Below are positions 1,859 through 63,894 of a stretch of 64,000 nucleotides of DNA, piece after piece. Position numbers and translations under genes: made by a program. The notes under the pieces were generated by a model. The model was not told the DNA's origin and did no database searches. It was given only the letters and a program-made list of their open reading frames with translations. Every line of letters begins with the position of its first letter. The stretch's first letter is position 1. This DNA comes from Hydrolagus colliei (taxonomy: Eukaryota): NCBI GenBank assembly GCA_035084275.1, contig CM068760.1, positions 1,302,001 to 1,366,000 on the forward strand, written 5' to 3'.

Positions 1859-1976
1859 CTATTGAAGCAATGAAAAATGCACATCGCGGGGAACTGGAGC
1901 GTGAACTGGAGAAGGTGCGGAAATCACAAAACAGCAACTTAAATGCTGATCTGGATGAAATCTGCAAACAGCACGA
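1859..1976 (+). CDS. MPRIP-like gene, internal exon (AIEAMKNAHRGELERELEKVRKSQ...)
   Basis: tttttaag| acceptor and |gtacgt donor; peptide matches recalled MPRIP AIEAMKNAHREEMERELEK; phase joins the next exon. Confidence 0.93.
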
Positions 1977-2890
1977 GTACGTGAGGGTCAAGGGTGTGGG
2001 CACGAATGAAAATTTAATGCTCCTGATGACATCTGGCAGAAGCCACAGCGGTTAAAATAAAACTGAGTCTTGCACAGCCATAAGTTTACTCGTTCCCTTG
2101 CTGACAGCCTTGTGCTCAGTGAGCTAATTTCATTACAGTTTATTCCTGGTGCATGCTAGTTATTGATTTGTGTGGCTGGGAGAATGTGTGGCTGAATACT
2201 GAATACCGGTACCCGGCTGCTTTGTCAATTTAAGCAGTCACGTAGCTTGTGACGCATGAGGTAATAATGACACATGAGGTATGAGGGCATTATGGTGCTG
2301 TACTCTAGCAAATCACTGTATTCACTGACTGAGGAAGAGTCTGGTTCCAGCTCAGATATTATTGATCCCTTAATGATTTTTGTGCTCCCTGCCTGCAATC
2401 TTCCACTAACCCATTTGTGGATCTGGCTTGCATTAAAGTGTGTGACCCAAGCGTAGAGGCTAAGTGACTAAGTGACACCTCGTGGTGGCAGAGGCAGAGA
2501 ACATTGCCTTGCCAGGCACGCCAGTTTCACAACAGCCCTGGCAGAGAAGAGAAACACTCGCTCCTTCTCCACCCCACCCTTTTGTTTGTGTGAAGAGAAT
2601 GGTCTGTAAGGATCTTGCCGTCATAACAAATGACTTCTGTGCAATTGCTGTCCCTCCACAAACCATTTTCTGCCTGAAACGCCAGCAAGTGACCGACTTC
2701 TGTCCATTCTTATTCCCATGGCAGTCACTGACGTTATTGAGCAATGGTACCACAACAATTTGCACTTCTATCGAGTGTTTATGTTGGCAGAAAGTCTCTT
2801 AAAACATTTAATAAAATTACATTCAAGAGCAGGAATAATTACTGAATAATTGTTTGAGGTGGGACATAATTTATCATAATTTATCCACAG

Positions 2891-3050
2891 GGAGGAGCTG
2901 ACATCGCTGCATCGAGAAATTGAAGTGCTGTCAGAACAATACTCTCAGAAGTGTTTAGAGAACGCCCACCTCGCTCAGGCTCTGGAAGCAGAACGCCAGG
3001 CACTACGGCAGTGCCAGCGTGAGAACCAGGAACTGAACGCACATAACCAG
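2891..3050 (+). CDS. MPRIP-like exon (EELTSLHREIEVLSEQYSQKCLENAHLAQALEAERQALRQCQRENQELNAHNQ)
   Basis: ccacag| and |gtatga; near-identical to the recalled MPRIP coiled coil. Confidence 0.96.
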
Positions 3051-3439
3051 GTATGAGGAACCCTCACCCGCTCAAAACATTTGTAAATCCGCCGAACGCG
3101 GGGGGTACTTTCCTGGAAATTCCATTCGGTAAGCTGGCGGCTTCCTCCCAACTGCGCACGCGCAGGGCCAGCCAGCGCCTGAACTCAAACTTTACTCGTG
3201 TGCCACAAAAAAAGTGCCGCATTTATTTCTTCACGTAGAAGTCGAATTTGCGCTCAAGAAAGTCGCGTTGGGAAGGGTCGGCTGTATACTCGGCTGATGT
3301 GACGAAGCATATCTAATATGCTTTGAACTGGGTAATTCCCAATTAGGAACAGATTGACCGTATTGGGTGTCACGAGACTTCAATAAATAAACATCCTGTT
3401 GTTAAAATATTTCAAGGGGTTCAAAAACCTGGATTTTTA

Positions 3440-3657
3440 TGCTTTATGGAATGCATTGCCTGAAAAGGTGGTGGAGGCCGATTCGATAACAACTTTTAAA
3501 AGAGAGGTAGACATTTATTTGGGGAGGACGGGTTTGCGAGGTTACGGGGAGAGAGCTGGGCAGTGGGATTAAATTGCTCTTTTTAAAGAGTCAGCACAGA
3601 CTCGATGGGCCGAATGGCCTCCTTTTGTGCTGTAAGATTCTATGATTCTATTATTCT
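3440..3657 (+). mobile_element. CR1-type LINE 3' end fragment
   Basis: tggaatgcattgcctgaaaaggtggtggaggc...tgggccgaatggcctcct followed by an (attctatg)-type tail. Confidence 0.75.
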
Positions 3658-3693
3658 AATTTGCACCTGATTTTTTTTGTTTGTTTTTCACAG

Positions 3694-3807
3694 GAGCTGA
3701 ATAATCGCCTAGCTACAGAGATCACACGCCTTAGAACAATGGTCTCCAGTGATGGCAGTGGGGATGGTACAGGCATTTCGCAAGGCAAAGAAGTCTATGA
3801 ATTAGAG
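3694..3807 (+). CDS. MPRIP-like exon (ELNNRLATEITRLRT...GKEVYELE)
   Basis: tcacag| and |gtaaac; 114 nt, phase 0/0. Confidence 0.95.
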
Positions 3808-4457
3808 GTAAACTGTATGATTGCAGCAACAGAGCATTACAGTCAATGCTTTAAAGGTTCATGTGGGCACATTGCTCAAGGTCTTGCTTAATTCCTAAAT
3901 TGTGAATTGCATTCTTATGAATGCAGCACAGACTTTATAAGGGAACCCATCCCCTCTTTCTGGTTCCTGTCCCCTGACAGATTAGCTACTTGGTGTCTCG
4001 TTTTCGCTGTTAGTAATGGCGGGTTGGGATGGTGCATTTGCTGTCAGGTTACTGTTGGGATTTGATCCTATGCGGATGTAGATTTGAAACTCAAGTATTT
4101 TAGACTTTTGTGATTTACTGAGCTGCAGACAGAAGAGTCCGTTTTACATAAGGACATAAGAATTTTCTGGCGGAAGAACAAAGTCCATCTAGTTTGCCTT
4201 CCACTATCCTGGCTGTCGCTTGGTGTGTCGTGTCCCAAGTTATACACCGTATCCTCAGATATTATTTTCACACAAAAATCTGTCTTAAAACAATCAACAT
4301 TTTCCACCCTGAAATCACAGACTCACCCAGTGTCTGTCCCCCCGTCCCCCCCCCACCATCAGAGGTTGTTGGAGATGATGATGAAAAGTGAAATTATTGA
4401 ACTCTGGGATTGTATGAAACGTTTAAACACTAAATCTGTTTCTTGCTCCATATCCAG

Positions 4458-4544
4458 GTCCTGCTGCGGGTGAAGGAGTCTGAAATACAGTATTTAAAAC
4501 AGGAGATTAATTCTCTGAAAGATGAATTGCAGACAGCTCAGAGA
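4458..4544 (+). CDS. MPRIP-like exon (VLLRVKESEIQYLKQEINSLKDELQTAQR)
   Basis: atccag| and |gtaagt; MPRIP/TRIOBP family motif. Confidence 0.96.
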
Positions 4545-5913
4545 GTAAGTTTATTGCTTCAGCTCTTGGTATTGTTAGAATCTTCTCAAAGTATTTAGGC
4601 TACTTTATCAATATTTTTTTTAAATCCTTGCATTTGATATAGCGCTTCTCATATCTTTGATATATTTCAAAGCTCTTCACAGAATAAAGTAAAGAGAACT
4701 GACAGTATATTTTGTGGGCAAAGCGTGGCAGCCAATCACAAAGTAATATATTGCCTATTTTCTCCCAAATGAAAGTTAGTTTGTCACCTCAAAAACTTGA
4801 TAAGTGCTTCTGTCAGGAGTGGTAATATGAAATTTTTGCCTGATCCTCTTGTGCACCATCTAGTGTCCAGATATAGAGTAACAGGAACGTGTGGTATGAA
4901 TTGCAGTATTAACAACAAAATGGCATTTGTATAGCACTTTTCATGTAGGTAGGGAGGACATCCCAAGGCGCCATAAGGAAATCTTTAGATTTTTTTTTTT
5001 TAATGGACACAAATCAGAGCCTGGAAGGGAGTTAACACTTCAAAATGATTACCAGGAAGGATGGGTGGTCGAGGCCAGAGCATTGGGGATAGTAGAAACC
5101 AGCTTGATACTGTAATGGGAAGATGGGTGGATCCTCTGGAAGTTTGAGATCAAATGAAGAGCCTTTGTGGGCTGAACCTCACTTATGATTATAGCCTAAA
5201 CACATAGAATCCACTTGTTTGTTTGGGTCTTTTAAAGATCTACTAATGAAGGTTTAATTTGCAAGGTTTATCAAGTGGTTTATGCTGTGGCTGCTCTAGC
5301 TATTGTCTACTCTGTGTGGACCGTACCCAACTAATCTCTTGAGGGGAAGTTCTACCTAATACTCTATGACTTCAAGGAATTTTGAGTAGAATTCAAGAAT
5401 CTTCCCCTCTTCAGCCTTGCCTTTCCTTCGCTCTCACCATTTACAAACTTAATATTTTCCTACTGTTTCGGTGCCATCTAGTGTTATAAAATTACACTTG
5501 TGGAATTCAACAGTGTATAGCATAGAATATATAGTTTAAGCGCTCTGAGACGCTGTCCGGCGTGGGGGGCGCTATATAAATCAAAGTTGTTGTTGTTGTA
5601 GTTCAGTGACAACTTGCATTTCTACAGCGCCCCTTCACCCAGGGTGGATTCCCAGAGCGCTCGACAGTTGCGGAACATGACGCCACACCTGGGGGAGAAG
5701 GGAGATGTCTGTAGGCAGGGTTGAAGAAGATGGTCTTCAGACGCGATCAGGAGATAGGGAAGGAAGGGGCAAGGTGGAGGGATAGAGGAAGAGTGTTTCA
5801 GAGTTTCCCGAAGTGAAACACATTGTATCAAAAGTTTATTTTTAGAAAATGATTATGTCTTATTGTTAAAAGTCTGTGCAGGAATTCTATAACCAGTACA
5901 TATCCTTCCACAG

Positions 5914-6076
5914 GATAAAAAGTACGCCACAGATAAATACAAGGACATCTACACAGAGCTGAGCATCGTCAAGGCTAAGTCGGAGCGTGATTTAAACAGA
6001 CTAAAAGAGCAGCTGCAATTGGCACATGAGTCCCTGGAAGAGCAGCCAATGGACGAAACCGAGCACAGCAGATATG
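5914..6076 (+). CDS. MPRIP-like exon (DKKYATDKYKDIYTELSIVKAKSERDLNRLKEQL...)
   Basis: ccacag| and |gtacag; matches recalled MPRIP DKKYASDKYKDIYTELS. Confidence 0.95.
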
Positions 6077-7462
6077 GTACAGCAGGCTTGAGGCGTTCAA
6101 CTTAACCGTTGTATCTTTCTGGCTTAGTTCAAGCCAATTGTAAAGAGTCTCTCCTCGTGCCAGACTGGAGTATGTGCTGAATCGCTCACTTGCAGGGGTT
6201 CATGTCTCCGTCCCCACTGAATTCATTGATCACAGTCAAGGCTGATTGAGAGTATAGCAATCATATCACGAGAGCTTGAGAAGCAAAAGGCCCCCTCCTT
6301 GTTCTTTTGATTTCAACTGTCCAGAAAATCTACCCTAAGGCCTTCTTGTTACATCATCAATCTCTGCTTTTAAGCACTCCCAGTGCCCTGGCGACTACTG
6401 CCCACCTTTTCTCACCACCCATTCCACCAACCCTCGGTGTAAAGTAGTAACTTTCAGACATCTGTCTTAACAGTGCCCATCAGACCCTACAGTATATATT
6501 TCATAAAAACACAGAAAGACATCACATCATCCAGAGCCACACAAACTATATCTTAATTTAGGCTTCTGCCACTGTCAAGCACTCCGGGGTGCAAGTTGTT
6601 GTTGTAGTTGTGGGAACAATTACTTGCATCCCGGAGTGCTTGACAGTGGCGGAGTCTAGAAATAGTGCAGAAATGCGCACTGAACCCCAATGGTAATCGA
6701 GGAAAGACTTCACAATGTTCCCCCATCACTAAATTTCCACAAATCAACCCCTCAAATCAACTTCAACAGATAACAATTCTCTTCGACCCACCACCATCAC
6801 CTCCACCACCATGACACAGAATAATCTTTGTTTTTCCTAAACTCGGGAAGATCCAAATCAGCCGTACGATGATTGAATGTGGTGACACCAGTTAATAACG
6901 TGGTTATGGATGTGAACAGAATTGACCAGTTGAAATGTCAGCGTCCTCTTTCTCTCACCCCCCCCCCCCAGTGGACCATTAATCTGCTTGTGCTAATTGT
7001 GCTAACCCTTTGAATTCAAGTGCTCCCTGAGCTAATGGAACTGTAGCTAAACAGAAGTAAGGAGGAGAAGATGAGGCAAGGGGAGAAAACAGAACGGTAC
7101 AGAGAGAAATTGATTTCCAATAGTATGGCCATCGAGGTAGAAAGATTAGATGGTCTGTTGAATTCTTCATCCTGAAGCTATTCCCCAATTATGCTGTTTT
7201 ATTTACTCTGTGGAGGCAAACCTTTACCATGTTCTTCATGAAAGATGAAACGGTTTTAAAGTGATAGAGTTACACTCATGTTGACAGGCGGATTCGAGTC
7301 TGCCTATAGATGAGTTTTGGAAGGGGAAGGGAGTGTGCACTAAACGGACACTTCAGCTTTGACAGAAGGCAGTACGATACACCTTGAACCTAAGCCCTAG
7401 ATTCGCTAAAGGCCCAGATTAAACAAGTAGTCCGTTTTACAGAACAAAATATATTCTTGCAG

Positions 7463-7545
7463 ATATAATGAAATCGAAGAGCAATCCAGACATACTGAAG
7501 ATGGCAGCCGCAGCAAAGCGAGCGGAACGAACAATGAGGTCCAAG
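7463..7545 (+). CDS. MPRIP-like exon (DIMKSKSNPDILKMAAAAKRAERTMRSK)
   Basis: ttgcag| and |gtatgc; DIMKSKSNPD...RSK is MPRIP-type; phase fits. Confidence 0.93.
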
Positions 7546-8907
7546 GTATGCTGTAGCCCCGACAATGTGTCTGTCACTTGTCTCTGCAATGCCATTAGGC
7601 CTTTGCTCTGCAGAACCCACTCCTTTTTAGTCCCATCATCGTTCAACTCAGCTGAAGCTGTTTTAAGGTCACTCTCGCTCATTAGCGCAGGAATTCTGAC
7701 CGTTTCCATATCATAATTTGGCTCAATGCAGTCTTTTGTTGTTTCAAAGCATTACTATTGCTTAGAGACTGCAAGGAAACCAGTTATATATATATATATG
7801 ATATACTGTGTGTGTATATATATATATACTGTATAATATAAATTCTCAGCTTTACCCTTTCACTCTTCCAGCCCTTTCTGTCTCACACAGGAAAGTTTTT
7901 TGAGCAGAACTGCATGTTTATCCAATAACCAGTTATATCCATTAAACTTCGGCCTCATAAATTAGCATTGGTGAGAACATCATCTTTCCTGTGGCCAAAT
8001 GGCAATAACACACTTCTCTTTTATTTATGAACTGTAATTGTGCTTTGTTAATATTCATTTTGCATCATTATTTTACAAGTATTTCACCTAACTACAAAAA
8101 CGCCTCTCGTGTGAAATACAAGGCCTCACCCCATCTGTGATTTTTTTTTCTTTTCCATTCTCGCCCCCCCTTCCCCTCCCCATTGCATCTGCTTTTACAA
8201 TGCACGGTTTCAAGTTATTCATGTGTTCGTTATGTCTTCGCTGTTGATTTATTTTGGTAACTGCCATTTAATGCAAGTGTTCTATTTCTGTTTGCATGAA
8301 GCTACTTTGTGGATCCTGTGAAATGTCATCATTACATGTGTTTGCTCACAACTCTGACCGGAGACACTTTTCTGGGTGAACCAGCACCACAGCAGCACAA
8401 TACCTGCCTTTTATCTTGACTTCCCCACATCTCTCCGCCCCCTCCCACCCCAGCCAGTGTTTTCATGTGTTCTCTTAGCGAGATACTGAATGCAAGGATT
8501 GATAAAGGACACACTGCCAACATCATTCGTGCAGTTGTAGTGAGTTTAGAGCACTAAAGGAGGCCTTAGTTGCTGCTGCTCACACATGTTTGTAAACCCT
8601 GGTGGTGGGCAATGAGGAAAAGGCAAGGAAAGGGAAGAATGGCGGAGGGTGTGTTTTTTTAAAATCTAATAATGCATTCATGAATCTATACAAAGTAGGG
8701 CTTTGGACAATTTTAATATAGTCTGGTCTGGGGTGTCCACCGTATGTGAATGAGAATTAAATAGTTAAAGTTCAGGTATCGCATGTGATCTACAGTTCCA
8801 CAAGCTCAGGAGAATGCCAAGTTCATAACCTCCCTCAATTCAGCAGTGAGGAGAAATTCCATGTAAATACTACTCCTTTTTTTAATCTTTCTGGCTTTCG
8901 CTCTCTC

Positions 8908-9085
8908 NNNNNNNNNNNNNNNNNNNNNNNNNNNNNNNNNNNNNNNNNNNNNNNNNNNNNNNNNNNNNNNNNNNNNNNNNNNNNNNNNNNNNNNNNNNNN
9001 NNNNNNNNNNNNNNNNNNNNNNNNNNNNNNNNNNNNNNNNNNNNNNNNNNNNNNNNNNNNNNNNNNNNNNNNNNNNNNNNNNNNN
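8908..9085. other. Assembly gap
   Basis: Run of N. Confidence 1.
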
Positions 9086-10246
9086 GTTCGTTTATTTTCG
9101 GGTATCTCAGATCCAGTTCCCCTTATTAATGTTAGGTGTAACTGGCTGTCCCATAAACTGGTCTTCGAGGTGATGTATTCTGTGACCCTTCAATCTGATT
9201 TAATTCTGACCGACTTGCAACAGTTTGTCAAAGTGGTAAATGTGGTACAAATGCTTTTTCTAAACAGCCCAAAGCAGGGAGCTGGGAACGACAACGTGTG
9301 CACTGTTTACTTTTGATCATCAGTATAAATTTTGAGGAGCAGGAGGTATTTCCAAGGGCCACAGTTATTAAAGTAAATTGTTAATTAAAGGAGCCTTTGA
9401 TGAACAAAATGGATGCAGGTTTTGACCTTGTTTCTGCATTTGGCACAAGGGCAATGGACCAGGTTTGCTCAGGAGCTAAATCTCTCAGTGACTGCTCTGG
9501 TTGCCTTCCTCTCAATTGTGCATATGTGGTATTCACACTGGCTGCATCCACACTTTCAAGAGTGAGGTTGATAAATTTTTGGTAGGTCAGGGTATTAAGG
9601 GATATGGGGAGCAAGCAGAAAATTGGAATTGAGAGAATTTGTAGAACTACAGATCAGCCATGATCTTATTAAATGGTGGAACAGGCTTGAAGGGCAGAAT
9701 AGCATCCTGTTCCTATTTCCCATGTACCACACTACCCTGTGGGTTTCAGTAGGAAAAATTAATGGCAATGATGAAAGACGATGGATTCTGATTTTAGGCA
9801 ATAAGTTTCTCAATTCGAGCTGCGGATTCTCAATCGAAAGTGACGTGTTTACCCACCCAGTTACTGAGGGGACCATTCAGATATGATCTGTTCCCAACCA
9901 CATTGTGTCACATCAAAAGACGACAGTTCTGGGGTGTGACCAACCTGATCCAGGAAAGCAAAGCAGGGCAGGCGATGTGAGATACTTGCAGCTAATCCGA
10001 ATGCTTTAATGAGCCCCTTTTTGTTGAGCGATTTGCATGATTAGCTTGTTATGAAGAACGAGTACATTATGTCTTGAGCACTAGTTAAGATATTTATATC
10101 TTATATACTTATAACACTACAAGGATCCAGGCACATTGCAGGTATTTTAGTCTGAAGTTCACAAGTGAAATTTTGAACCCTTTATTGGTGATGCTTTACT
10201 TTCTAACCTTCCTTATTGAATTTTGCTCCCCTTTCTCTTCTTTTAG

Positions 10247-10279
10247 TCTGTGAGTAAAGAGCTGGCCTGGGAGAGCTAG
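10247..10279 (+). CDS. MPRIP-like stop-containing cassette exon, SVSKELAWES* (exon 10247-10310)
   Basis: Strong pyrimidine tract then ttttag|; donor |gtaaac at 10311; resembles the MPRIP alternative C-terminus SVIEQVSWDT*. Confidence 0.8.
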   Translation, partial: SVSKELAWES

Positions 10280-12342
10280 AACTGCTCGATGATTGACGCC
10301 CTCCCTTTAGGTAAACCACTGTTGGTCATCGTCACTGACTCGAGACATGTCACTTTGAGTTAGAACATTTTGTGTGCACATGCGATTAAGTCTGGGTTTA
10401 TTTCCTAGACTTGCTTTAGCCTGTGAACAATTAAATCTCATTGCTGCATCTGCAGAGGCTTATTTTGCAGTTATGGTGAGGTGAACATGAGATCTTATTC
10501 ATTCTCCCAATAGCTTCAAATGGACCCCAATGTTGGAGGTCGATTAATTTGCTTTCTTTTAAAAAAAATGTAGACCTCGGGCTGGGCCTCAAATAAGTCC
10601 AGTAAGAATTGTTGTGGAGATCCCACAGTACATTTGTTAATGCTTGAAGTGTTCAGAGAGATCACGGTAGCCAGTCTTGTCATTAATCTAGTAACAGCAT
10701 TAGAGGTTTAGTGTATTCACCTGGCCTGTTTTCTTTGTGCTTTGTTGTCTGTATGTTGGTCATGTGTCCAGTGTTTTGCCAGGTAGGTACGATGTTAGGC
10801 TGCAGTTATTCTAACCTGTAGATTTGGTTGTGGTGTTACGTTGGGAGTTTGTTCTGATCTGTGCATGCATTATTCCAGACAGTGCTATAGAATTAAACAT
10901 TTTGTACTTTGGATCCACATTGCAAACATTCTCTGCCAGTAGTTTAGTTAGAATACTAATCTCAATTAGGCCATCTTTCCCTCACCTGAAGCTCAAATGA
11001 TTCTAACATTGACCCACAGTGGAGCGTTTGAACTCTCAGATCTAGGGCAGCCTGGTGATGCTACATATAGTTTATATTAGATTTATTTACTGAGGAAAAA
11101 GTCTGTTTTTTAATTGTAAAATCTGATCCAAACGCAGCAGCAGCAGCAGCTAACCAGGCATTTCAGTTGTATTTTGCCTTTGGCAATGGATGAAATATTG
11201 TTCAACAGTTGTGTTCTATTGGTATGGAACTATGCAATATATTGTACAATACAACCACTGTGTAGCACATGACTGAGCAATTGTGTCCTGACCAATGACC
11301 TCAACTTGTACGTGTTTTTGAAATCCGCTTGACCCTGGTGTAATTTTCAGATAGCTCTGTAATAGTGACCCCCCCCCCCCGCCAAACTAGCTCAGGCTGC
11401 GGGCTCTAGTTTAGGAGCCAATGCATATCAATATTGCTTTATTTAAAACCAAACTTCTGATATGGGATCTCTCTCTCACACAATACACAACTCAAGAAAC
11501 CTCAAATGAGTTAGTGCCAGGGGTCTAAAACCACAGGTGACATAAATTGGTAGTTTCACAGCTCACAACAAACTGTAAGGATGGCTAATTAAACAGTGGT
11601 GGGAAATTAAAGTCACTATTGTGAGGGCTAGAGAGTAGCCGGCGGTCCAAAATGTTGTTATTAAGTGTTATTGGGGAAGTTTGATCCTAAACCATCCTCA
11701 ACCAATCCTGGCATTGAATTGGAGAAAATGTTCTATTCCTCAGCATATGTCTTCCTCAAATACAAAATCAAACTAAGACTTTTTCATTAACCCTTTTTAG
11801 ATCGTTGTGTTTAATGCTTGATTTTCTTCCCAAGTACAGTATTGCTGATCTGGCAGTACAGCTGTTATATTGTGGAGTCTGTATCGTTCTGCTTGAGTAA
11901 CTTGCAATTGGCTTCAAGTTTACAGGTGAAATTTAGTCTCACTGATGAAAGAGACTGTGTTTTTGTTCCAAGTTCTCTGGTGCCCATTTTAATAACTGGC
12001 TTGTGTTGTTGTCTTTCTCTTGCTCTGTCAGCCTGAATGTGCTAACCACAGACCCATCAGTTTGATGCAGAAAACAATACAAGCTAAGACTCTATTTGCA
12101 GATCTAGCATTAGGTGCACCCAGAGAGCTGTCTTCAGATTACAGTCGCTCTGATTAATTTGTTTGTGGCAAATAGGTATATTGAGGGGGAGAGGAGTAAC
12201 AGATGAAATGATCATCAGAATTTGCATGCAGCAATGTACATTAACCCTTCTCACTCCCCGGAATTCTTTGGTGTAATACGATGATTGGATTTGTCAGGTG
12301 GTCGACTGCACTAACGGTTCCTTTCCCTCCTTTCCTTCACAG

Positions 12343-12414
12343 AGCCTCAAAGAAGGACTTTCTGTTCAACAGAGGTTTCACCTGTTTGAAAACAAGGAGT
12401 CAAAAGAATTTTAA
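12343..12414 (+). CDS. MPRIP-like terminal coding exon, SLKEGLSVQQRFHLFENKESKEF*
   Basis: ccttcacag| acceptor with upstream actaac branch site; homologous to MPRIP SLKEGLTVQERLKLFE. Confidence 0.92.
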   Translation, partial: SLKEGLSVQQRFHLFENKESKEF

Positions 12415-52693: not shown

Positions 52694-52863
52694 CTGCCTC
52701 CGGAGCATCCTGTGAACACTTGCAGATCTCACGGGGGGAGGAATTTTGGGAATGTTTTCGGCATCAAGACTGCTCTGAGGGCTGACTGGACGGAATAGCT
52801 GTACAGGAGCCTGGAGGTTGGAAGCACTGTCTGTTGGCTGTGACCGCACCGATGTGGTGGAAC
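52694..52863 (-). CDS. CACNA1G: CACNA1G exon (GSTTSVRSQPTD...IPKIPPP...HRMLRRQ)
   Basis: ccacag| and |gtgggt; phase 1/0; LRRQ exon end as in Cav3.1. Confidence 0.9.
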
Positions 52864-53316: not shown

Positions 53317-53500
53317 CTGACTGGTATCTGTGGCTGTTGTGAAACTCTTGTAGACCTGGTGAGGGAGCTGGGTCAACAGGCTGGAACATGTAGCTGTCAT
53401 TGGGCAACGAATGGGTCCTGCCAACGAAAGGTCTCCTCACCGACAGGAGGTTCTTCTCCGGAGATTCCCGTTGAAGTTCGCTCTCCTGAACGTACTCAGT
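53317..53500 (-). CDS. CACNA1G: CACNA1G exon (LLSVRRPFVGRTHSLPNDSYMF...QS)
   Basis: ttgcag| and |gtatgt; RTHSLPNDSYM Cav3 motif. Confidence 0.94.
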
Positions 53501-55937
53501 CTGCAAGACACGAAACAAAGTGAGGGTCAGTGGGACGAGACCAGCGAGCCGAAGGAAGCTTTGTTGCCGATATGTAAAAGACAAGCATGCGGCAGGTCAC
53601 TGCTACAGTAGCACCAACACAAACAAAACAGTAAAAGGGACTGAGGAATCTGAGCAGGATATATTTTTCTGCACATATTCTAAGCCAATGGATCACATTA
53701 TAGTCTCACTGTGGCTAATGAAACAGAGTGTGTCACACAGAACTGGTTGTAAGACCGAGGGTGGTGGGTGGAGCGGGGGGGAGAGGGTGTGGGGGGGGGG
53801 TCGGGGGGGTTGCGGGTTGGTGGGAGGACTCAGTGTGAAACACATGAACCATGACAATGCCAATTCCATCAATCAATTGCTTCATGCAACAAGTCAACTT
53901 CTTACATAAGAACATCTAGTTGGGCATCCACCTTCCTGAGGGACGCATGTGACTTCTTACAAGAGTGACTCCTTTCTCTCATTAAAATGCAACCACTTTG
54001 AAATAACTAGGCATTTGACTAGTTGGGACATCCTCCCCAAGAAAAGCGCTCTATTAATGTAATTCTTCTGTTGTTGTTGTTGAAAGGCAAGGACAATGGG
54101 AAGAGTTAGGTATTGCAACTGACAAGAAAAGCGCAGTTGTTGGATGTTGAATATAACTGAGTATTATCAGGGAGGCTGTAAATGATCAAAATTAATGAAA
54201 AACTCAAACGTTTCAAGGAGAACAACTCCTCTTTGAGCTGAAAATACAGTGGACATTACGTGTCTCACCATTGGCAGTTTCAGCCGTTAATGGGATTTCC
54301 ACGTTATAATCTCCTAAGAGTCTACCATCTGCTAGAATTTCAACCCACTTGCCCCCAAGTGCAGTGCTTGTGGCCCAGTGCGTTTGCCTTTATCACCCAC
54401 TTTGTGTTAAAAATTATGTTAACACAGAAGTCTGAAAACATTTCCTTCTTTCAGTCTTAATTTGGAAGCCACTCGTCCGGTATTCTCAAAAATAAACCAG
54501 TCTCCAAATTGAGATTGAATTTAAATCTCCATCTTTTCTGTTGAAAAGAACTGACTCTGATTTTTGTTATAGAATAGTATTTAATTAACAGAAAGAGAAG
54601 TTACAGGTGAACTGGGAGACCGGGGGCAAAAATTATAATTAAGACTAAATGGGATTCTCTGCACATATTCATTAGATCTCAGTTCCATTAGACTAACAAA
54701 CAAAAGAATCTCACTTGCGCTGGAGAACCATTGCTCCTGTTAACACATCTTCTTCATTCACGAGACCTAAAGCATTGAGATGTGTCATCAATGTCTTCCA
54801 CTAGTGCATGAAGCATGGCTGGGAATAGCAATCATTGTCTTGGTCACCAGAATACATCGAAGCACAACAGCATCTCTACAGAACTCTACCACAGAAGGTC
54901 ATGGTCAACCAACAATGGAACGACGATCACAAGAAGCACAGCTACACCTAACAGATAGAATGGATCCAGATAGAGATTGGTTGCAACCAAGGATCTGTTG
55001 GGCCACAAAACAAAAGCACTAGTCTACACAACAGTTTGGAAAAGTTGAATGCTGGACTCCAAAGAGGAGCAGATGGTTATATACAAATCAGGGCTAGAAA
55101 TACTCTTTGTCCTCTCAGAATTCAATTCATTACCAGCTCAATGCTATATGGATGGAATTTTATAGCCATAGATGATTTCCCCATGGCTTTTCGGTGCTTT
55201 CACTGGGAAATGTACCAGAGATATCAGCTGTCAATCACACCCCAACAAGGAAAATCCATACACTCCGTTATAATTTTGCTTTTCTTGATTTTAGTCTCTT
55301 CTATAGATACCATTAATTGTAGAGTACAATGACTATAAATAATATTACTGTGTCTCGCCCACAAATATACAGTCAATTCACTTTACAGTATATTCTGGGA
55401 AGCGCTTTGAGACGTCTAGAAGACGTGAAAAGCCGCTAGATCAAATGCAAGGATTATTATCATTATTGCTTGCATCTAAAATTGCTCACGAAGAAGACAA
55501 AAGAACCTTCTCTTTCATGAACAATACTGAGCCTGAACTTTCACCTCGTCTTCCCCGGTGAAACCATTTTGCCTTAAACTTTAAGGTGGGGCAAAATTGT
55601 GCAAAAATCTCCTAAATTCAGCCTCATGATTGAAGTAATTTTTTTTCCCGAAAACGAAACCATTTTCCAAATTGAGAATTCAATTAGGTTTTAGATGCAA
55701 TCAGATTCAAGATTTTTCCACAATTATACGCCATCAATGACTATCAACTCAAACATTTCAAAATGGAGTGGTCAGTCAGGGTTTTGGTGGGCAGTGGTCA
55801 TGGTATTTTTGGCCGTGGAGGGAACACATAGCTTGAACTTCTACATAGACGACAAGTGCATGTTACGTTTTGCATAAAACACACAGTAGAGTATTTCGAG
55901 CCCCGTGATAAGCAAAATACAGGTTTGGAATATGTAC

Positions 55938-56072
55938 ATTGCTTTCCAGTGTATTTAGCAAGAATACATTAGTATCATCGGGAAAAGAGTCATCCGTCAA
56001 TGCTAACGACCAGGATTTCTCAGACTGAATATCAGATGTCAGAGAAACAGCCTCCATCTCAGCTAGAGGGAT
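55938..56072 (-). CDS. CACNA1G: CACNA1G exon-35-like cassette ([33 protein letters not shown]...LESN)
   Basis: gtttag| and |gtacat; 135 nt; matches recalled human [14 protein letters not shown]...[12 protein letters not shown]...LESN. Confidence 0.92.
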
Positions 56073-58097
56073 CTAAACAAGGGAGAGACGACCAGGCATA
56101 AGAAACTTAGGAAAGAATTCACAGAATGGACTGACACTGTGAAGAAAAGCTCTTCTCAGAGCTGTGTAGCACATTCACTCAATGGCACATCCACTAACCC
56201 TTTAAACAGATAAAGAATCATCTATATATCAAAGTCACAATGAAATGTTGCATTTTAAGCCATTCCAATGACTTACTGATAAAGAGGTTCCTTGAAAGCT
56301 GGAAGAGATAGAAGTTGACTGTCTAAGATTTCCTAAATCTTCCAATTTCTAATGAACACCATCATTCTGTCATTCTAAATCCCAGTAGAGTGAACAATAA
56401 TAATTTGACTGCTTCGTTCCTTGCCCCCTTCTCTCTTTCCCCCTCTTCGCTGTCTCTAACTTGCTTTCACTCCCTCCTTCCATCTTTCTCTCTCTACCCT
56501 CTGGGTAATGATTGGCCGCCGAAGGATTCTGTTGTGCAGTTGTCGCTGGATCACGATGCACGTACAGCGTAGGCCTCACTTACACATCAGAACACTTAAA
56601 GACAAGATTAGGCTTAAGATGGTGCTCCTTACCAAACGTGCTGCTAGCAAACTACACCACACCATTTTCAATCCGGCATGCAAAAAGAAAGGCAAGTCAG
56701 TAGAATGAAGAGAGACAAGAAAAATGGTCAGTGGAACATCGCTAGATATTACATACGCATACATATGCATATGCACTGTACATATATATAGAGATATTTA
56801 TAAATATATGGAAAGTAATTGAGTCTATTTGTCAGGTATAGCCAGCTTCATCGATCAAATTAAACTAAAGTTTTCCCATTAACTTTAAAGTTCCTGTGCA
56901 AGGTTACAACTCACCTGAGGCTCCATTTCCCCACCTTAAGATCAAGAGGGTGCAGAACTTTGGAAATGTTTCAAATCCAGTTTTAATTTGCAAAGCCAGA
57001 AACCGGCTTCCAAACGAAAATTTAACTAAAATTTGCATTGATATAACGCCTTTGGATGGACAAACGCCTTTGGCCCATTTGATCTCACCCTTCCAACGGC
57101 TTTCTTTCACACGAAAACCAAATCAGTCTTGGGTGTGTGCTGCACGACAGCCTTTGTGTAATCATTAGGGCTCCTCGATAACAAGTCCGGCTAATAAGCT
57201 TGCCAATCAAGACATCTTCTGTATGTGGCAATTTTGGTGAAGGGGTTGGTGATTGTGTCACTTTATGAAGCTTCCAATAGCCGGCTACCTACTCCACCTT
57301 CACGGCATTATTTCCAAACGGATTCTAAAAGTCAGTGTTATGCGTTGCGAGTGCAGAGATATAATGGCATGATTAGAATTCTGCCTTTGACGCATTAAAA
57401 CCGTCTGCTCCGACGCCGAGAAAAGCAGCCCTGCCGAAGCAATCAATCCCATTGCAAGCGGATGGCCCACAAATGAGTGGTGGAACGTGCTAAGGTCCGC
57501 ACTTCATTAAGTGGAAAGCAGTTTGATCGCGTCACTCTGAGGTAATGACCTTCTGATGGAATTAGAACCACAACGATTTGGGAATCTGCAGCAGAGGAGG
57601 ATTGGAAATCAGCTAACAAAACAGACTTAATAGTGTCTTATATGAATAAAAGCAACAGTCCTCTTATCCTGATCGGTGTCACTGTAACCAGCAGCTCAAA
57701 GCTGAAGTATTATTATTACTGGGCTGTTCCAGAGACCTAGTAACATTACTGTACACCCCCTTCACCCTGTCCAATTGCGAATATATTGTGGATTAGGTAA
57801 TGTGTTTAGTATTGTGTTCCCATTGTCTTGGCATACGCTGGTACTGGACAATTATCATTTAGTTTTCAGGATGGTATGCTTTATGGCAATGTCCTCTGAG
57901 ACAAGGAAGGGAAACTTTTGGGGGTAAAACAGGTCAGACTGAGGGAGAAATTAACAACTGAAGATCTATCAGCTTTCTCAATTGGTGGGTTTGTCCAGTG
58001 TAACAAATTAAGCATTTTTTTAAAATCACAAAAGTAGTGGAGCTCCACCAGAGAGGGACAATAAATTGGAGGAAATAGAGAGAGTGAGGGAAAGAAA

Positions 58098-58431
58098 NNN
58101 NNNNNNNNNNNNNNNNNNNNNNNNNNNNNNNNNNNNNNNNNNNNNNNNNNNNNNNNNNNNNNNNNNNNNNNNNNNNNNNNNNNNNNNNNNNNNNNNNNNN
58201 NNNNNNNNNNNNNNNNNNNNNNNNNNNNNNNNNNNNNNNNNNNNNNNNNNNNNNNNNNNNNNNNNNNNNNNNNNNNNNNNNNNNNNNNNNNNNNNNNNNN
58301 NNNNNNNNNNNNNNNNNNNNNNNNNNNNNNNNNNNNNNNNNNNNNNNNNNNNNNNNNNNNNNNNNNNNNNNNNNNNNNNNNNNNNNNNNNNNNNNNNNNN
58401 NNNNNNNNNNNNNNNNNNNNNNNNNNNNNNN
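58098..58431. other. Assembly gap
   Basis: Run of N. Confidence 1.
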
Positions 58432-59305
58432 TGCAGACACCACGCGGAATGAAACCAAAGTATTGCAACCGTTGCATTCAACGAGTACAATTCTGAAAAC
58501 CGCTAAAGTTCCAGCAAGAGGATCTAGATGGAGAAGTGCAATCACACACCATGCAAGGCAAAGTGTCCCGTTTCCAGCCCAGAAACCTCAGGCTAACTGG
58601 CAGACCAAGCCTCAGCGGCCAGGGTCAGTCCTGTCTTGCGATAGTCCTAGGGATTGGAAAGTTGGGTTTACAGTGAATTATTGCCATGTTTTGATGTTAT
58701 CGGTGCGGTATCAAATGAGGGACTGTAACACATGCCTGGCACAGGCAAGGGAAATTTCTTAGGGTACGAGGTTTTAAACTAACTGTGAATGTTTCGCTCT
58801 ACACTGAAGCCGCGGGTGGGTAGGGTTATTGAAAAACCCTGCAGCCAGGTTTACCCAATAAAACTACGCCCGGTGTGAGCTGGAAGTTCGACCACGTAAC
58901 TTTGAAACTAAAAGACAAAACGTGCCACTGAATTGCACTGAGAATCAGCTCCGAGAATAGTAATAAATTAGTCGTTTGGGGACATTTATCTTCAAGAGAT
59001 TATTACATCAGAAAAGCGATCCCCCTTTCGACTAACAGTCGGGCTCCTACTAAATTCTGGAGTTAGGAAACTTGCCTAAAGTTTCACCCTGCCTGGGAAT
59101 CTAACCCAATCTCTCGCTTGTGACTATCATAATAATAATAATGATTTGATTCCATTCCTCACTGTGGGAAATATCACTGGCTTTTATTCTCAACACAATC
59201 TCGCTGACACCAAAACTGTCCCCTCGATAGATCTTGGTCTTTTGAGTTCCTTTTGACTTCTGGGTCTGAACACAGGACTTTGCCAGAGAAGCCAGAATTA
59301 TTAAC

Positions 59306-59446
59306 CTGTTTCTCAATGGAGCATTTGTTTTGCTGAGGGCTGGCGTAGTTGTAGCAAACAGAGCCTGAGAGGTTGTCCATAATGGTGAGTTCTCCTTCCA
59401 GTGACCCTTGGATCAGCAGGGACACGTTGTCAAAAAACTGCTTTTC
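59306..59446 (-). CDS. CACNA1G: CACNA1G exon-34-like cassette (EKQFFDNVSLLIQGSLEGELTIMDNLSGSVCYNYASP...EKQ)
   Basis: gcacag| and |gttaat; 141 nt, phase 0/0; SLLIQGSLE motif. Confidence 0.9.
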
Positions 59447-59684
59447 CTGTGCGTAGGGCGTGAAGGAGGGAAAGGAGGAGGGTGTGGAGTTGGGAACATC
59501 AACAGTCCAAGGTTTGGGTGGGAGACAAAAGGGGAAAAAGAAAAGAACACGCCGATAAACAGAATCCACACTCAAAAACAGTGCACACACATTGCTCAGG
59601 GTGCATCAACAACAACAACAAGTACAAATCTGCTTCATATGCACTTCATCCCTGCTATTATTAATTACTGTCTGCGTTAAGAGG

Positions 59685-60085
59685 CATCACAAGGCCAATG
59701 CAGTCGGCCGAGGATGGGGGAGATGGGGTCACGAAGGTTGGAGCGGTAGAGGACATGGGCCACGGAGTTCTGGATTATCTGCAGCCTATGGAGCGAGGAA
59801 TTTGGAAGGCCAACAGGCAAGGCGTTGGCGTAGTCGAGCCTGGATGTGATGAAGGCATGAAGGAGGGTTTCAGCGGCCTGAGGGGTGAAGTAGTGGCGGA
59901 GTCGGGCACTATTGCGGAGGTGAGGGAAGGCAGAGCGGGTCATGGCTTGGACGTGGACGTGGTGGAGGAAAGACAATCGAGGATCGAACAAGACGCCTCG
60001 GTCCATGTCTGGCTTGGTGAGGTTGTGCGCGCAAACCGTGGAGGTTGATGCTGCCAACGCCTGATGTGTGAAGGTCCTGGCGCGA
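59685..60085 (-). mobile_element. L2 LINE ORF2 C-terminal fragment
   Basis: ORF GVLFDPRLSF..H....AFPHLRNSARLRHYFTPQAAETLLHAFITSRLDYANALPVGLP...LQIIQNSVAHVL is typical of L2 RT ends. Confidence 0.9.
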
Positions 60086-60912
60086 GCCAATCAGGGGGGC
60101 CTTGGTCTTGTATTAATAATACCAATATTAATCATCCTATTAATCAGCAGGGAATCAAATTCAAAGTGATTTAAAAGAGAAAGCTTTTACAATAGGGACA
60201 CCTTTGTGACAAGTTCCATTGTTTATAGTACGATTATACGAGTGTACCCTTTTGCTAAAGTCCATCTTTATTTAATTCCTATCTTTTCCAAGTATTCTCT
60301 TCCTCTGGGAAAATGCTAAGTAGTTTGACATCATTAATGTATCAAGCTCTTGCATAATATATTGTTCCAGCAAAACTCTGGGGGTCAAATAATGCGTTCC
60401 ATTTCTGGTTATTATATAACTAGTGGCTTATTATATAAAGGATCTATTCAACAACAAAATTACATTTGCCTAGTGCCTTTCACACCAAGAGAACAACCCA
60501 ATTTATAGAATATGTGTCATACAAACCAATCTCCACATATTGAGGAGTTAAGTACACTGATCACTAAAAGTTGCCACATTTTCACTCTGTCTTTATAACG
60601 GGATTTCTCTTCATAGAAACCATAGTAAAGGCTTGCTCTGCTCAATGAATAGTCCAAGACACCCACAACTATGCAGTCGGTTGTATCCCATTCTTAACAG
60701 AATGTACAATTCATGTCTTGTTAAAGATTCCTCTAATAAATCACAGAATAAATTGAAAGGAGTCTCAGATTAAGAGTTGATCCGTTCTCTGCGAATGTTT
60801 ATTTGTGCCCTGCTCGTGATCTGGCAATCGTTAAACAACATAATCGTCTGCATATTTCTATAAAACCCTCAAAGGCTTTGTAAGAGAATCAGCCCGAGGG
60901 TCGGTTCCTTAC

Positions 60913-61254
60913 CAGCGGTGGCTCAAACAAAAACGGTGAATCCACTTTGATATGGAGTGACTGGTCTGGACTCCCCGGGCTTTCCCCCACATCTCCCCCG
61001 TCGCTGCCTCCCCACACCACACCCTCCACTGGGGCTGGGTTGGCGTTCAACATTTTCAACTCCAGCTCCAGCTCGGCCTCCAGCTCGGCCTCCTCTTTGG
61101 CCTCCTTGTTGCTCTCCTCCAAGTGCTTCATCAGCACAGCGATCACCACGTTCACCAGCACAAACTGGGCTGTCAGCACAAACGAGACAAAGTAGATTGG
61201 CGACACCACTGTGTTGTAGCAGGTGCCTTCCTGGTTACAGTCGCGCAGGGTGTC
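60913..61254 (-). CDS. CACNA1G: CACNA1G exon: IVS6 and proximal C-tail (DTLRDC...[43 protein letters not shown])
   Basis: cgacag| and |gtaagg; 342 nt; Cav3.1-type sequence. Confidence 0.97.
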
Positions 61255-61779
61255 CTGTCGATCAGACAAAAGGAAGCCATTCAACCCGAGCACTGTCCAA
61301 GTAGGCACTGTTTGCCGCCGAGTGAAGAAACTGGGTTCTCTCACACACGGACCCCGGTAGCGTCCCATTTCAGACCCAGGGTCAGTGCTCGAGTTTCCCG
61401 ATCTCAGTCTGCACAGCGACGGAAGCGCGAACCACCGGCTTCGGTCTCTTCGTATCGACGACGTTGCTTCTATACGTTGTCTGTGCCAGGCAACGTGCAG
61501 AAGCAAAAGCTTGAGGCGTGCATGAGGGGAGAGGGAACAGAGACATGGTGAGAGGGTTGGGGGTTGCTGCGGAGTGTAAACACCAGCGCAGGCTGAGTTA
61601 AGCTGATGGGTTTGTTTCCGTGACGTATCATTCGATGCAAGGTGAGATTTGAGCCTCCTACTGTATACTCTCTGACTTGGGAGGTGAGAGATGCTAACAC
61701 CTGAGCCAGGCTGACACCAATGTTTGGGACCATTGCCAACAGTGGGGAGGAGGGGGTGGGGGGGGAACAAGTTCATTAC

Positions 61780-61901
61780 CTTCATTATTCCGTTCCAGTT
61801 ATCTCCTGTTGAAACCCGGAAGAGGGTGAGGAAAGCCATCCCAAAGTTCCTGAAGGTGGCATGTCTCCCCAGCCCTTCGCAGGGATGGTAAGTGTTGCAT
61901 T
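61780..61901 (-). CDS. CACNA1G: CACNA1G exon: repeat IV pore loop ([36 protein letters not shown])
   Basis: STGDNW carries the repeat IV Asp of the T-type EEDD filter; attcag| and |gtaatg. Confidence 0.97.
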
Positions 61902-61944
61902 CTGAATATTTGAGGCAAAATATTAAGGTGAATAATAATGATAA

Positions 61945-62210
61945 TCGTAATAATAATAATCCTTGCATTTGATATCGCGCTTTTCACGTCTTCTGGACGT
62001 CTCAAAGCGCTTCACAGAATAAACTGTAAAGTGAATAGACTGTATATTTGTGGGCGAAACATGGCAGCCAATTGCGCACAGCAGCGTCCCCTACAAACAG
62101 TCGTGGATTGAAAATGACCAATTTATTATTGGGGGGGTTTTCAGGGATTATTATCAGGCGTGTGAAGTAATGAAACTTGCCCAAGGTTTCACCCTGACCA
62201 GCCGGGAATT
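61945..62210 (-). mobile_element. Well-preserved SINE copy lacking the start of its tRNA head
   Basis: Closest match to the string shared by all SINE copies in the window, with a (TAA)n tail. Confidence 0.85.
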
Positions 62211-62702
62211 GAATGGATGGTGACTTCAGAATATGTTTCAGTGGTCAGCCCCTGAAACCCATCGCCAAGTGTCAATACCCAAACCAAACCCACTGATGAA
62301 AATGGCAATTACATTGTGTGATTAGGAGCTTCTCATCTCTGGCCTGACAGGTAATAAACCTTTACTGACCCTCATTAAAATGTGTGATGTTTTCGAAGGG
62401 AAAGGGAGGGTGATTCAGGATGCATTCCGAGGAGGACGAGGAGTATGAATTCTGCCTGGGAGTGTGAAATCTGAACTAAACAAGTACTATACGACTGTAT
62501 AACTGTTCCCAGTCAGGATCGATCAACCCGTGCCCCAGACCTTGACAACCCTCTCTCCTTTTGTGTGGTTGCTAGATGCCACAGAGGCCTGCCGCAATTT
62601 GGAGTTCGTGGCTGACAGCAGCTTCGGTAAAATGAAGAGCAAAAGATCTCAACGGGCGCCAAGCGCGGGTTGTGAAATGTGAACTCCATGTCCGTGGCTT
62701 AC

Positions 62703-62781
62703 CCAGGTCCCCAAACAGCTCCACCCCGAGAGCCGCAAATATGAAAAACAGGAGCATGAACAAGAGGCCGAGATTCCCAAC
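62703..62781 (-). CDS. CACNA1G: CACNA1G exon: IVS5 ([26 protein letters not shown])
   Basis: ccgcag| and |gtaagc; 79 nt. Confidence 0.97.
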
Positions 62782-63206
62782 CTGCGGGAAGGATGGACGT
62801 GTGTGAGCAACACAGTTACCGGGACGCTACTCCCCCACCATCCCGTCTCCCGCCAGCAACTCGCACGTTTACAGCGCCGTTCACGCAACAGAAATTCCAC
62901 CCCCCGCCCCCCCTTTAAAAAGCCCTTTACAGAATGCGATTAACTGAAGCGAATGTTGTCACAGAGGCAAGCGGGGCAGGTAATTTGTGTCGGCGATGTC
63001 CTGTGGACTACCCACTAGGTAAGCAGTAGAAGTGCTGAATTGAATTTGGATGAGCAGGGAATGTAAAGCAGAATCACTGGGAGGTCATTTTTTTGTTTGG
63101 AGCGTGCGAAGAGGCTTTGTGCTGTGATGCTAAAATTATAATACATTGTGCGTTATACATGGGGCTTGCAAAACACTTGCCTGGCTCCCAACTGAAGGTT
63201 TCTTAC

Positions 63207-63277
63207 CTGCGGCAAAGCCTGAATTACAGTGTTCAGCAGTGATCGCATTCCCACTGCCATTTTCAACAGTTTCAAGA
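63207..63277 (-). CDS. CACNA1G: CACNA1G exon: IVS4 and S4-S5 linker (VLKLLKMAVGMRSLLNTVIQALPQ)
   Basis: acaaag| and |gtaaga; MAVGMR is the Cav3.1 form, whereas Cav3.2 and Cav3.3 have MATGMR (recalled). Confidence 0.96.
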
Positions 63278-63417
63278 CTTTGTTTGGGGACAAAAATGGA
63301 AAGAGATTAGAGCAACGAATGCGGTCAAAGTAAAATGGGAATAGCTGTACAGGTAAAGTTACGACTTTACAGTGTCCCGCTTTACACAGTACAGGTGTAA
63401 GACATGCCTCTACTGAC

Positions 63418-63551
63418 CTCTGGCGATTCTCAGGACTCTCATTATTCTAATGATGGTGGGGTTGATTGGCAAAGACGCATTCACCTCAATCTCTTCAAGG
63501 GTAATACCCATAATGGACAGCAACACTATCGCAAGATCCAGCTGGTTCCAT
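63418..63551 (-). CDS. CACNA1G: CACNA1G exon: IVS3-S4 ([44 protein letters not shown])
   Basis: ctccag| and |gtcagt; 134 nt. Confidence 0.97.
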
Positions 63552-63784
63552 CTGGAGAGAGAGAGCAGGAAAACAGGCATCACATTCAGTGACTGAAACA
63601 ATAGTCTAACATTAGTGGTATTCTGATGTTAATTTGGTCAATGTCTTATGGAATATTGGAAGTAGTTTGATGTGACATGAAAGAAAGAGACATTCTCTCA
63701 ACATGAAAGGTACTTTACAAATGTAACTTGCGATGTGCTGCACTATATTAACACTAAATTACCAGACATCCAGAAGTATTTTAC

Positions 63785-63894
63785 CTGTCCTTGAAGAACC
63801 GGCGAAATCCAAAAGCGACCAGTTTGAACACGGACTCAAGGACAAAGATAATCGTGAAGATGTAATTGCAGATCCTCAGGGCTTTGTCGAGTTC
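63785..63894 (-). CDS. CACNA1G: CACNA1G exon: IVS2 ([37 protein letters not shown])
   Basis: ctccag| and |gtaaaa; ICNYIFT and LESVFK are Cav3.1-type; the gene continues beyond the window. Confidence 0.96.

What the first reader, a model, noticed from the sequence alone, without database searches (positions are those of the whole stretch)
1859..63894. MPRIP-like + RAI1/TCF20-like + FDXR + CACNA1G: possible third ohnolog block absent from mammals
Seen: the four genes lie within 64 kb. Recalled knowledge, to be verified: human MPRIP and RAI1 are on 17p11.2 (with CACNA1H on the same ancestral block in chicken), TRIOBP, TCF20 and CACNA1I are on 22q13, and CACNA1G and FDXR are on 17q with no MPRIP- or RAI1-family neighbour. 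Inference: these two genes are third whole-genome-duplication paralogs from the CACNA1G block, not the true MPRIP and RAI1. Automated annotation could easily mislabel them.
Basis: partly seen in the sequence, partly recalled or inferred. Interest (0 to 1): 0.7.

Follow-up and report, generated by a model that had tools for sequence, protein, structure and literature searches.

The report
Third MPRIP and RAI1/TCF20 gene copies
This chimaera (ghost shark) window holds intact third copies of two gene families that mammals are thought to have only twice; they are kept side by side in sharks and bony fishes, likely date from the early vertebrate genome doublings, and the fish gene databases call "mprip" groups with this third copy rather than with the frog, lizard and bird MPRIP.

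Summary
Confirmed. The window (holocephalan genome, contig C27) carries an MPRIP-like gene, a RAI1/TCF20-like gene (1286 aa), FDXR and a Cav3 gene best read as CACNA1G. The same genome has separate loci: MPRIP, RAI1 3' exons beside a SREBF gene, and a second Cav3 on C25; TCF20-NFAM1-RRP7A on C43. ML trees give three MPRIP-family clades. Frog, gecko and fulmar MPRIP group with the C25 copy (97/93). The window gene groups with shark, coelacanth, bichir, gar and teleost proteins that NCBI mostly names MPRIP (98/99); joining it to tetrapod MPRIP is rejected (AU p=0.0003). The RAI1-like gene forms its own clade (100/99), sharks to lungfish; it keeps the split ePHD zinc finger but lacks the Q/Y-rich N-terminus and AT-hook. 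The two third copies share a contig in 14 of 18 species and have consecutive locus tags in tarpon. No tetrapod copy appeared, but that test is weak and no mammal genome was searched. Branching order of the three copies is unresolved. This is an ordinary kind of event (ohnolog lost in tetrapods), apparently undescribed for these families, with a real naming consequence: fish 'mprip' is likely not human MPRIP's orthologue.

The parts
1859..12414 (+). Third MPRIP/TRIOBP-family gene, last seven coding exons (1859-1976, 2891-3050, 3694-3807, 4458-4544, 5914-6076, 7463-7545, 12343-12414), encoding the C-terminal coiled coil. The two PH domains and a 1294-codon open frame (probable long-isoform exon) lie upstream of the window (C27:1206808-1301352).
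   Evidence: Exon join open with AG/GT ends; 99% identical over conserved blocks to C. milii P0105; tree; long frame
19392..27651 (-). Third RAI1/TCF20-family gene, CDS exons 27651-23983, 21053-20960, 20161-20112, 19439-19392; 1286 aa with a C-terminal split ePHD zinc finger
   Evidence: model, alignment, tree 100/99; best hit C. milii si:dkey-94l16.4 at 91%; contigs from runs of a relative stop at the 23983 donor, and stranded RNA reads cover the large exon
32250..33750 (.). GC- and CpG-rich stretch between the head-to-head RAI1-like gene and FDXR; likely a shared bidirectional promoter (inferred; 5' UTR exons not mapped)
   Evidence: GC up to 0.62 and CpG observed/expected 0.55-1.04, against about 0.40 GC for most of the window
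33373..41372 (+). FDXR (adrenodoxin reductase), 12 coding exons, about 490 aa
   Evidence: PDB 1CJC match E=7e-20; sequence; exon join (exon 2 frame)
51096..63894 (-). 3' part of a T-type calcium channel gene, best read as CACNA1G; continues beyond the window to at least C27:1423734
   Evidence: Pfam Ion_trans; PDB comparisons; own-genome searches

Best explanation
The window's MPRIP-like and RAI1-like genes are intact third members of their families, separate from MPRIP/TRIOBP and RAI1/TCF20, and likely arose in the two early vertebrate genome doublings on the CACNA1G chromosome. Shown: three family members coexist in holocephalans, each forms its own clade, and the two third copies stay linked from sharks to teleosts. 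Inferred: the three blocks (C25 = bird chr14/human 17p11-16p13-7p22 type, C43 = human 22q13 type, C27 = bird chr18/human 17q type) are 2R copies of one ancestral segment, and the C27 pair was lost on the line to tetrapods after the lungfish and coelacanth splits, while FDXR and CACNA1G stayed. Inferred function: the third MPRIP is likely an F-actin and myosin-phosphatase scaffold like M-RIP (two PH domains and the coiled coil are kept; role recalled). The third RAI1 is likely a nucleosome-associated cofactor acting through its ePHD finger, without the AT-hook DNA contact of TCF20 or the Q/Y-rich N-terminal region of RAI1/TCF20.
For: Separate loci in the genome: MPRIP C25:7.76-7.79 Mb; RAI1 last exons C25:8.89 Mb, 81% and 94% identical to skate RAI1, tail-to-tail with a SREBP-type bHLH gene 15 kb away; second Cav3 C25:14.5 Mb; TCF20-like 1588-codon frame on C43 with an AT-hook core, followed by NFAM1 and RRP7 domains. 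SoxE genes on C25 and C27. C. milii has all three MPRIP-family proteins (P0225, P0105, P0292); Latimeria, Erpetoichthys and Trichomycterus each have both MPRIP and the third copy. Trees: MPRIP 97/93, third 98/99, TRIOBP 100/99 (27 rows); 99, 88, 100 under the mixture model (39 rows, quick search). AU test rejects third + tetrapod MPRIP (p=0.0003) and a chimaera-only duplication (p=1.7e-45). RAI1-family third clade 100/99. Linkage: same longest-contig length for both third copies in 14 of 18 species shared; Megalops locus tags MATL_G00209890 and G00209900 are consecutive. Zebra finch CACNA1G/H/I lie on chr18/14/1A (PMC6679542 supplement).
Against: The order of the three MPRIP-family clades is unresolved: MPRIP+TRIOBP p=0.137, third+TRIOBP p=0.203, third+MPRIP p=0.041; cyclostome rows move between trees. 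The RAI1 tree has no invertebrate outgroup, no tetrapod row and only one TCF20 row. TRIOBP, CACNA1I and a third SoxE gene were not found in this assembly, and RAI1's large exon is missing beside a 200-N run, so the 22q13-type block is only partly seen. Third copy and RAI1 share a contig length in Narcine, Conger and Synaphobranchus. Four of 18 species do not show both third copies on one contig. The last Cav3 exon favours CACNA1H. No mammalian MPRIP is named in the trees. Tetrapod absence is weakly tested: one search also missed tetrapod RAI1/TCF20 and any coelacanth copy.
Confidence: 0.88

Rival explanations
1. The third copies are real but came from a small segmental duplication of a linked MPRIP-RAI1 pair in the jawed-vertebrate stem (or before the genome doublings, with later differential loss) and were moved next to FDXR-CACNA1G.
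For: Branching order unresolved; MPRIP and the third copy are 71% identical over conserved blocks, closer than either is to TRIOBP-type rows at about 55-62%; no SREBF or TOM1-type gene was seen beside the C27 pair within the window.
Against: Cav3 and SoxE paralogues are split over the same two chromosomes, C25 and C27. TRIOBP's lower identity fits its long branch. The MPRIP and RAI1 copies on C25 lie 1.1 Mb apart with many genes between, so a small duplication would not take both.
Confidence: 0.08
2. The window genes are the true MPRIP and RAI1/TCF20 orthologues, as database names say, rearranged or misassembled beside CACNA1G.
For: NCBI names the shark and teleost relatives MPRIP, and some gar, bowfin and bichir relatives TCF20. 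Gecko and frog MPRIP are slightly more identical to the C27 copy (79%) than to the C25 copy (77%, 76%).
Against: The C25 copy has the longer branch, which explains the raw identity. Trees place tetrapod MPRIP with C25 and the AU test rejects the alternative. RAI1 beside SREBF and TCF20 beside NFAM1/RRP7A exist elsewhere in the genome. Linkage in other species rules out misassembly.
Confidence: 0.02
3. The ohnolog reading holds, but one or both third copies survive in some tetrapods (amphibians or reptiles), so the loss is later or patchier than the fish-tetrapod split. This is compatible with the best explanation except for timing.
Against: None of the 90 named hits is a tetrapod, and the 14 unnamed ones lie nearest to fish or lungfish rows, although teleost copies at 32-36% identity were found. 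The unnamed long-branched rows nest among teleosts, with Megalops and Xenoophorus. Darvekar 2013 reported only two vertebrate clusters among 64 sequences.
Confidence: 0.2

Closest known systems
RAI1 and TCF20/SPBP (Darvekar et al. 2013, PMC3799622; read: parts 2 and 3 of 5)
   Same: [quoted passage not shown]
   Different: Only 32-39% identical to RAI1/TCF20 in the C-terminal region; shorter (1286 aa against 1540-1990); N-terminal Q+Y content 0.08 against 0.15-0.23 and no [RK]GRP AT-hook core. The paper describes two vertebrate clusters, not three.
MPRIP (M-RIP/p116Rip) and TRIOBP
   Same: Two PH domains (Pfam on P0105), the RSKTFDWAEF segment and C-terminal coiled coil, and a long internal coding frame also present in the C25 MPRIP; 71% identical to C25 MPRIP over 543 conserved columns.
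   Different: Own clade on another chromosome, next to the third RAI1 copy, FDXR and CACNA1G; slower-evolving than the chimaera's true MPRIP; keeps the first PH domain, which the TRIOBP rows mostly lack.
NCBI fish 'mprip' and zebrafish-named si:dkey-94l16.4 / si:ch211-165g14.1
   Same: These are the orthologues: all 120 listed hits are closer to the C27 copy, and proteins with these zebrafish names fall in the third RAI1 clade.
   Different: The sequences are annotated, but the names hide that they are third paralogues. True fish MPRIP appears under names such as 'protein outspread', 'trichohyalin-like' or also MPRIP. No zebrafish protein itself was in my set.
2R ohnologs kept in cartilaginous and ray-finned fishes and lost in tetrapods or mammals (for example nanos1, Acsl, Kazald; seen as search listings only)
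   Same: Same pattern: chromosome-level paralogy, differential loss and misleading names.
   Different: Here two unrelated neighbouring genes share the pattern and stay adjacent.

Membership tests
RAI1/TCF20 (SPBP) family | [quoted passage not shown] | tested here: met
   Alignment; PF13771 over its cut-off on the C. milii orthologue P0001
RAI1 orthologue | Groups with named RAI1 and lies beside SREBF1 | tested here: not met
   Separate clade 100/99; the RAI1-type exons and a SREBP bHLH gene are on C25; naming it SREBF1 is recalled from human synteny
TCF20 orthologue | Conserved AT-hook; neighbours NFAM1 and RRP7A | tested here: not met
   No GRP core in the window protein, present in the C43 frame; NFAM1 (E=4e-4, under cut-off) and RRP7 (E=3.5e-15) domains follow it on C43. 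Human gene order recalled; no named TCF20 protein was in the set
MPRIP/TRIOBP/outspread family | PH domains plus the conserved C-terminal coiled coil | tested here: met
   amphioxus and Ciona homologues recovered and named
MPRIP orthologue (tetrapod) | One clade with tetrapod MPRIP | tested here: not met
   AU p=0.0003; frog, gecko and fulmar MPRIP group with the C25 copy; no mammal row named
TRIOBP orthologue | Inside the TRIOBP clade | tested here: not met
   TRIOBP clade 100/99 holds a different C. milii protein, P0292
2R ohnolog | Duplication after the invertebrate chordate split and before the shark/bony fish split | tested here: met
   All three MPRIP-family clades contain chondrichthyan and osteichthyan rows; amphioxus and Ciona fall outside. 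RAI1 family has no outgroup
2R ohnolog | Copies lie on paralogous chromosomes that share other gene families | tested here: met
   C25 and C27 share MPRIP, RAI1, Cav3 and SoxE families; four families only, not a genome-wide test
2R ohnolog | Tree order fits the 1R/2R relations of the chromosomes | tested here: inconclusive
   Two of three pairings are not rejected
Ohnolog absent from mammals | No copy in mammalian genomes | not testable with these tools
   No vertebrate genome other than G000 can be searched; rests on recall, PMC3799622 and passages of PMC11728296, plus weak negative results

The most novel reading that the evidence does not exclude
An undescribed third RAI1/TCF20 chromatin reader and a third MPRIP have stayed adjacent since before sharks and bony fishes split and were lost together near the origin of tetrapods. 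The fish gene named mprip is not the orthologue of the human Smith-Magenis-region gene, and fish carry an extra ePHD protein that could buffer rai1 or tcf20 mutants and mislead fish models of these disorders.
Probability: 0.55. Interest if true: 0.55.

Novelty: new member of a known kind. Interest (0 to 1): 0.42.

Why it matters
RAI1 (Smith-Magenis syndrome) and TCF20 are dosage-sensitive neurodevelopmental genes described in the papers read as a pair. A third vertebrate member, still present in teleosts under clone names, is an unrecognised candidate for redundancy in fish models. Fish 'mprip' hits in transcriptome and proteome studies are likely read through the wrong human gene. The pair also marks the ancestral gene content of the CACNA1G chromosome and shows that MPRIP and RAI1 family members were neighbours early. 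The kind of event is well known, so the surprise is modest.

Tried and rejected
No PDB structure of MPRIP or TRIOBP turned up to compare with. The third homologue search, with a 51-aa C25 exon, returned only five C. milii proteins. Both Atlas calls (30, 91) gave phylum-level taxa only and say nothing on tetrapods. A search for NAGA as a TCF20 neighbour found one NAGA/GLA-type gene, on an unplaced contig, which is uninformative. U2AF2 gave one locus only. The weak C6:24.34 Mb hit was not supported by tblastn. No RNA holder on record was listed for the exon. The careful mixture-model tree did not finish; the quick one is reported. Paper searches found no description of a third member: TCF20+RAI1+paralog+WGD (1 unrelated paper), MPRIP+TRIOBP+paralog+phylogen, mprip+zebrafish (listings only), dkey-94l16.4, clone names and '-like' names (no relevant hit), Cav3 synteny. 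The ohnolog database paper PMC13450315 (outline, first part of Results) has none of six gene names in its one held supplement; its web database could not be read and may already list these genes. Misassembly was rejected because of linkage in other species. Raw identity was rejected as an orthology test because the C25 copy evolves faster.
Full report
Setting. The window is G000:C27:1302001-1366000; the genome is 1.0 Gb and C27 is 12.85 Mb. The best protein hits are to Callorhinchus milii at 91-93%, so this is a holocephalan other than that species (inference).

Observation. The four genes are there. The MPRIP-like gene ends with seven exons at 1859-12414 (+) and the RAI1-like CDS has four exons at 27651-19392 (-), 1286 aa, both open with canonical splice sites. 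FDXR (33373-41372, +) matches adrenodoxin reductase and starts head-to-head with the RAI1-like gene across a CpG-rich stretch. The Cav3 gene runs from beyond the window to about 51096 (-). Two loop exons favour human CACNA1G over CACNA1H more strongly than the same exons of the C25 Cav3 gene do. The last exon favours H, and the H construct in PDB appears to lack one loop, so this assignment is relative.

Other copies in the genome. A 53-aa exon finds two MPRIP-family loci, C27 and C25:7.79 Mb. The ePHD region finds C43:2.36 Mb, and PF13771 finds a further exon at C25:8.89 Mb among 29 matches. The C25 exons are 81% and 94% identical to skate RAI1 and lie tail-to-tail with a SREBP-type bHLH gene 15 kb away. 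RAI1's large exon was not found in 240 kb of C25; a 200-N run lies 3.6 kb upstream of the small exons, and beyond it are NUDIX and MAD domain genes. The C43 frame has an AT-hook core and is followed by NFAM1 and RRP7 domains, the recalled human TCF20 neighbourhood. A second Cav3 gene and one of two SoxE genes are on C25; the other SoxE gene is on C27. TRIOBP, CACNA1I and a third SoxE gene were not found; C. milii does have a TRIOBP-type protein, so an incomplete assembly of that chromosome is likely. Zebra finch CACNA1G, H and I lie on chr18, 14 and 1A (PMC6679542, supplement rows only).

MPRIP family tree. Sequences came (120 of 1584 listed; 5; 150 of 1861 listed; 30 named). A FastTree of 142 rows and IQ-TREE runs on 39 rows (mixture model, quick search) and 27 rows (careful; 12 rows dropped: Ciona, two long lamprey rows, lungfish TRIOBP and eight shark and bony-fish rows from groups already represented) agree on three clades. 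MPRIP: C25 copy, C. milii P0225, whale shark 'outspread', Latimeria, frog, gecko, fulmar, reedfish and a second teleost set (97/93). Third: window gene, sharks, Latimeria P0189, bichir, gar and teleost 'mprip' (98/99; 88). TRIOBP: 100/99. Holding the third clade with tetrapod MPRIP is rejected (p=0.0003), as is a chimaera-only duplication. The order of the three is unresolved. Against my reading at first sight, gecko and frog MPRIP are 79% identical to the C27 copy and 76-77% to the C25 copy; the longer C25 branch accounts for this.

RAI1 family. One search returned 104 proteins: sharks and rays at 64-68%, sturgeons, holosteans, bichir and lungfish at 43-45%, teleosts at 32-45%, and named RAI1 at 28-33%. 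In a 30-row tree the third clade has 100/99 and the C25 exons group with shark RAI1. There is no outgroup and one TCF20 row. The window protein meets the family criteria of Darvekar et al. (PMC3799622, parts 2-3 read): long loop between ligands 2 and 3 and both tryptophans. It lacks the AT-hook core and the Q/Y-rich N-terminus. That paper reports two vertebrate clusters; a 2024 review (PMC11728296, passages) also treats them as a pair.

Linkage. Of 18 species with a contig length in both searches have both third copies on a contig of the same length, including a 386-kb seahorse scaffold. Astyanax, Plectropomus, Epinephelus lanceolatus and Labeo do not; different assemblies or teleost duplicates may explain these. 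In Megalops atlanticus the locus tags are consecutive. Contig length is a proxy for identity. In Narcine, Conger and Synaphobranchus the third copy and RAI1 share a contig length.

Expression. Four of 12 listed runs were laid on 15500-33400. In three runs guessed to be RNA, from a relative about 93% identical, a contig piece stops at the donor 23983; one has 94 further letters, the length of the next exon. In one raw RNA run, depth over the large exon is 5.9-7.6 on one strand and 0-0.1 on the other, and zero in the bin 22664-23260 inside the intron. This supports transcription in relatives, not in this individual.

Absence from tetrapods. None of 90 named hits is a tetrapod and the 14 unnamed lie nearest to fish or lungfish, but that search also missed tetrapod RAI1/TCF20 and any coelacanth copy. 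Absence from mammals is recalled, not tested.

How it likely works. Inferred from kept domains: an actin and myosin-phosphatase scaffold, and a nucleosome-associated ePHD cofactor without its own AT-hook. Neither was tested.

Verdict. These are third paralogues, very probably 2R ohnologs, already in databases under misleading names. Nine paper searches found no description of them; subscription papers and the ohnolog web database were out of reach. Earlier notes of this scan record similar third copies elsewhere in this genome, which suggests the pattern is common here; I did not test them. Interest is moderate.

Noticed in passing
G000:C27:1175000-1184200 (L062, L012): A U2AF2-like gene lies about 23 kb upstream of the third MPRIP; it is the only U2AF2 match found. 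Human U2AF2 is recalled on 19q13, so this could be a reciprocally retained ohnolog.
   Followed up: partly
G000:C27:1160191-1164300 (L063, L062): Short-chain dehydrogenase gene resembling DHRS7C by recalled motifs; its paralogue DHRS7B is recalled on human 17p11.2.
   Followed up: partly
G000:C27:1145266-1158044 (L064, L063): Four tandem single-frame sulfotransferase genes (Sulfotransfer_2), three nearly identical and one of them shorter.
   Followed up: no
G000:C478:1-19446: Unplaced contig 99.3-99.6% identical to window 46642 onward (3' part of CACNA1G); probably an unpurged haplotig.
   Followed up: partly
G000:C25:8894439: A 200-N run separates the last RAI1 exons from a NUDT1/MAD1L1-type gene region; the large RAI1 exon is missing there, so the join may hide or misplace it.
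   Followed up: partly
window 32250-33750: The RAI1-like gene and FDXR are head-to-head across a CpG-rich stretch, a possible bidirectional promoter that might help keep the block together.
   Followed up: partly
P0022, P0026: The lungfish third RAI1 is about 1930 aa, against about 1280 in sharks and mostly 700-1000 in ray-finned fishes, through a long acidic, loosely repetitive insert.
   Followed up: no
G000:C43:2323571-2331311 (L045, L046): Retrovirus-like element with gag/pol-type frames in several pieces, 27 kb upstream of TCF20.
   Followed up: no
G000:C27:1192000-1200000 (L011): Leucine-rich-repeat gene on the minus strand between U2AF2 and the third MPRIP; not identified.
   Followed up: no
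P0057: A Pristis protein named 'transcription factor 20' groups with RAI1, another misname in this family.
   Followed up: yes
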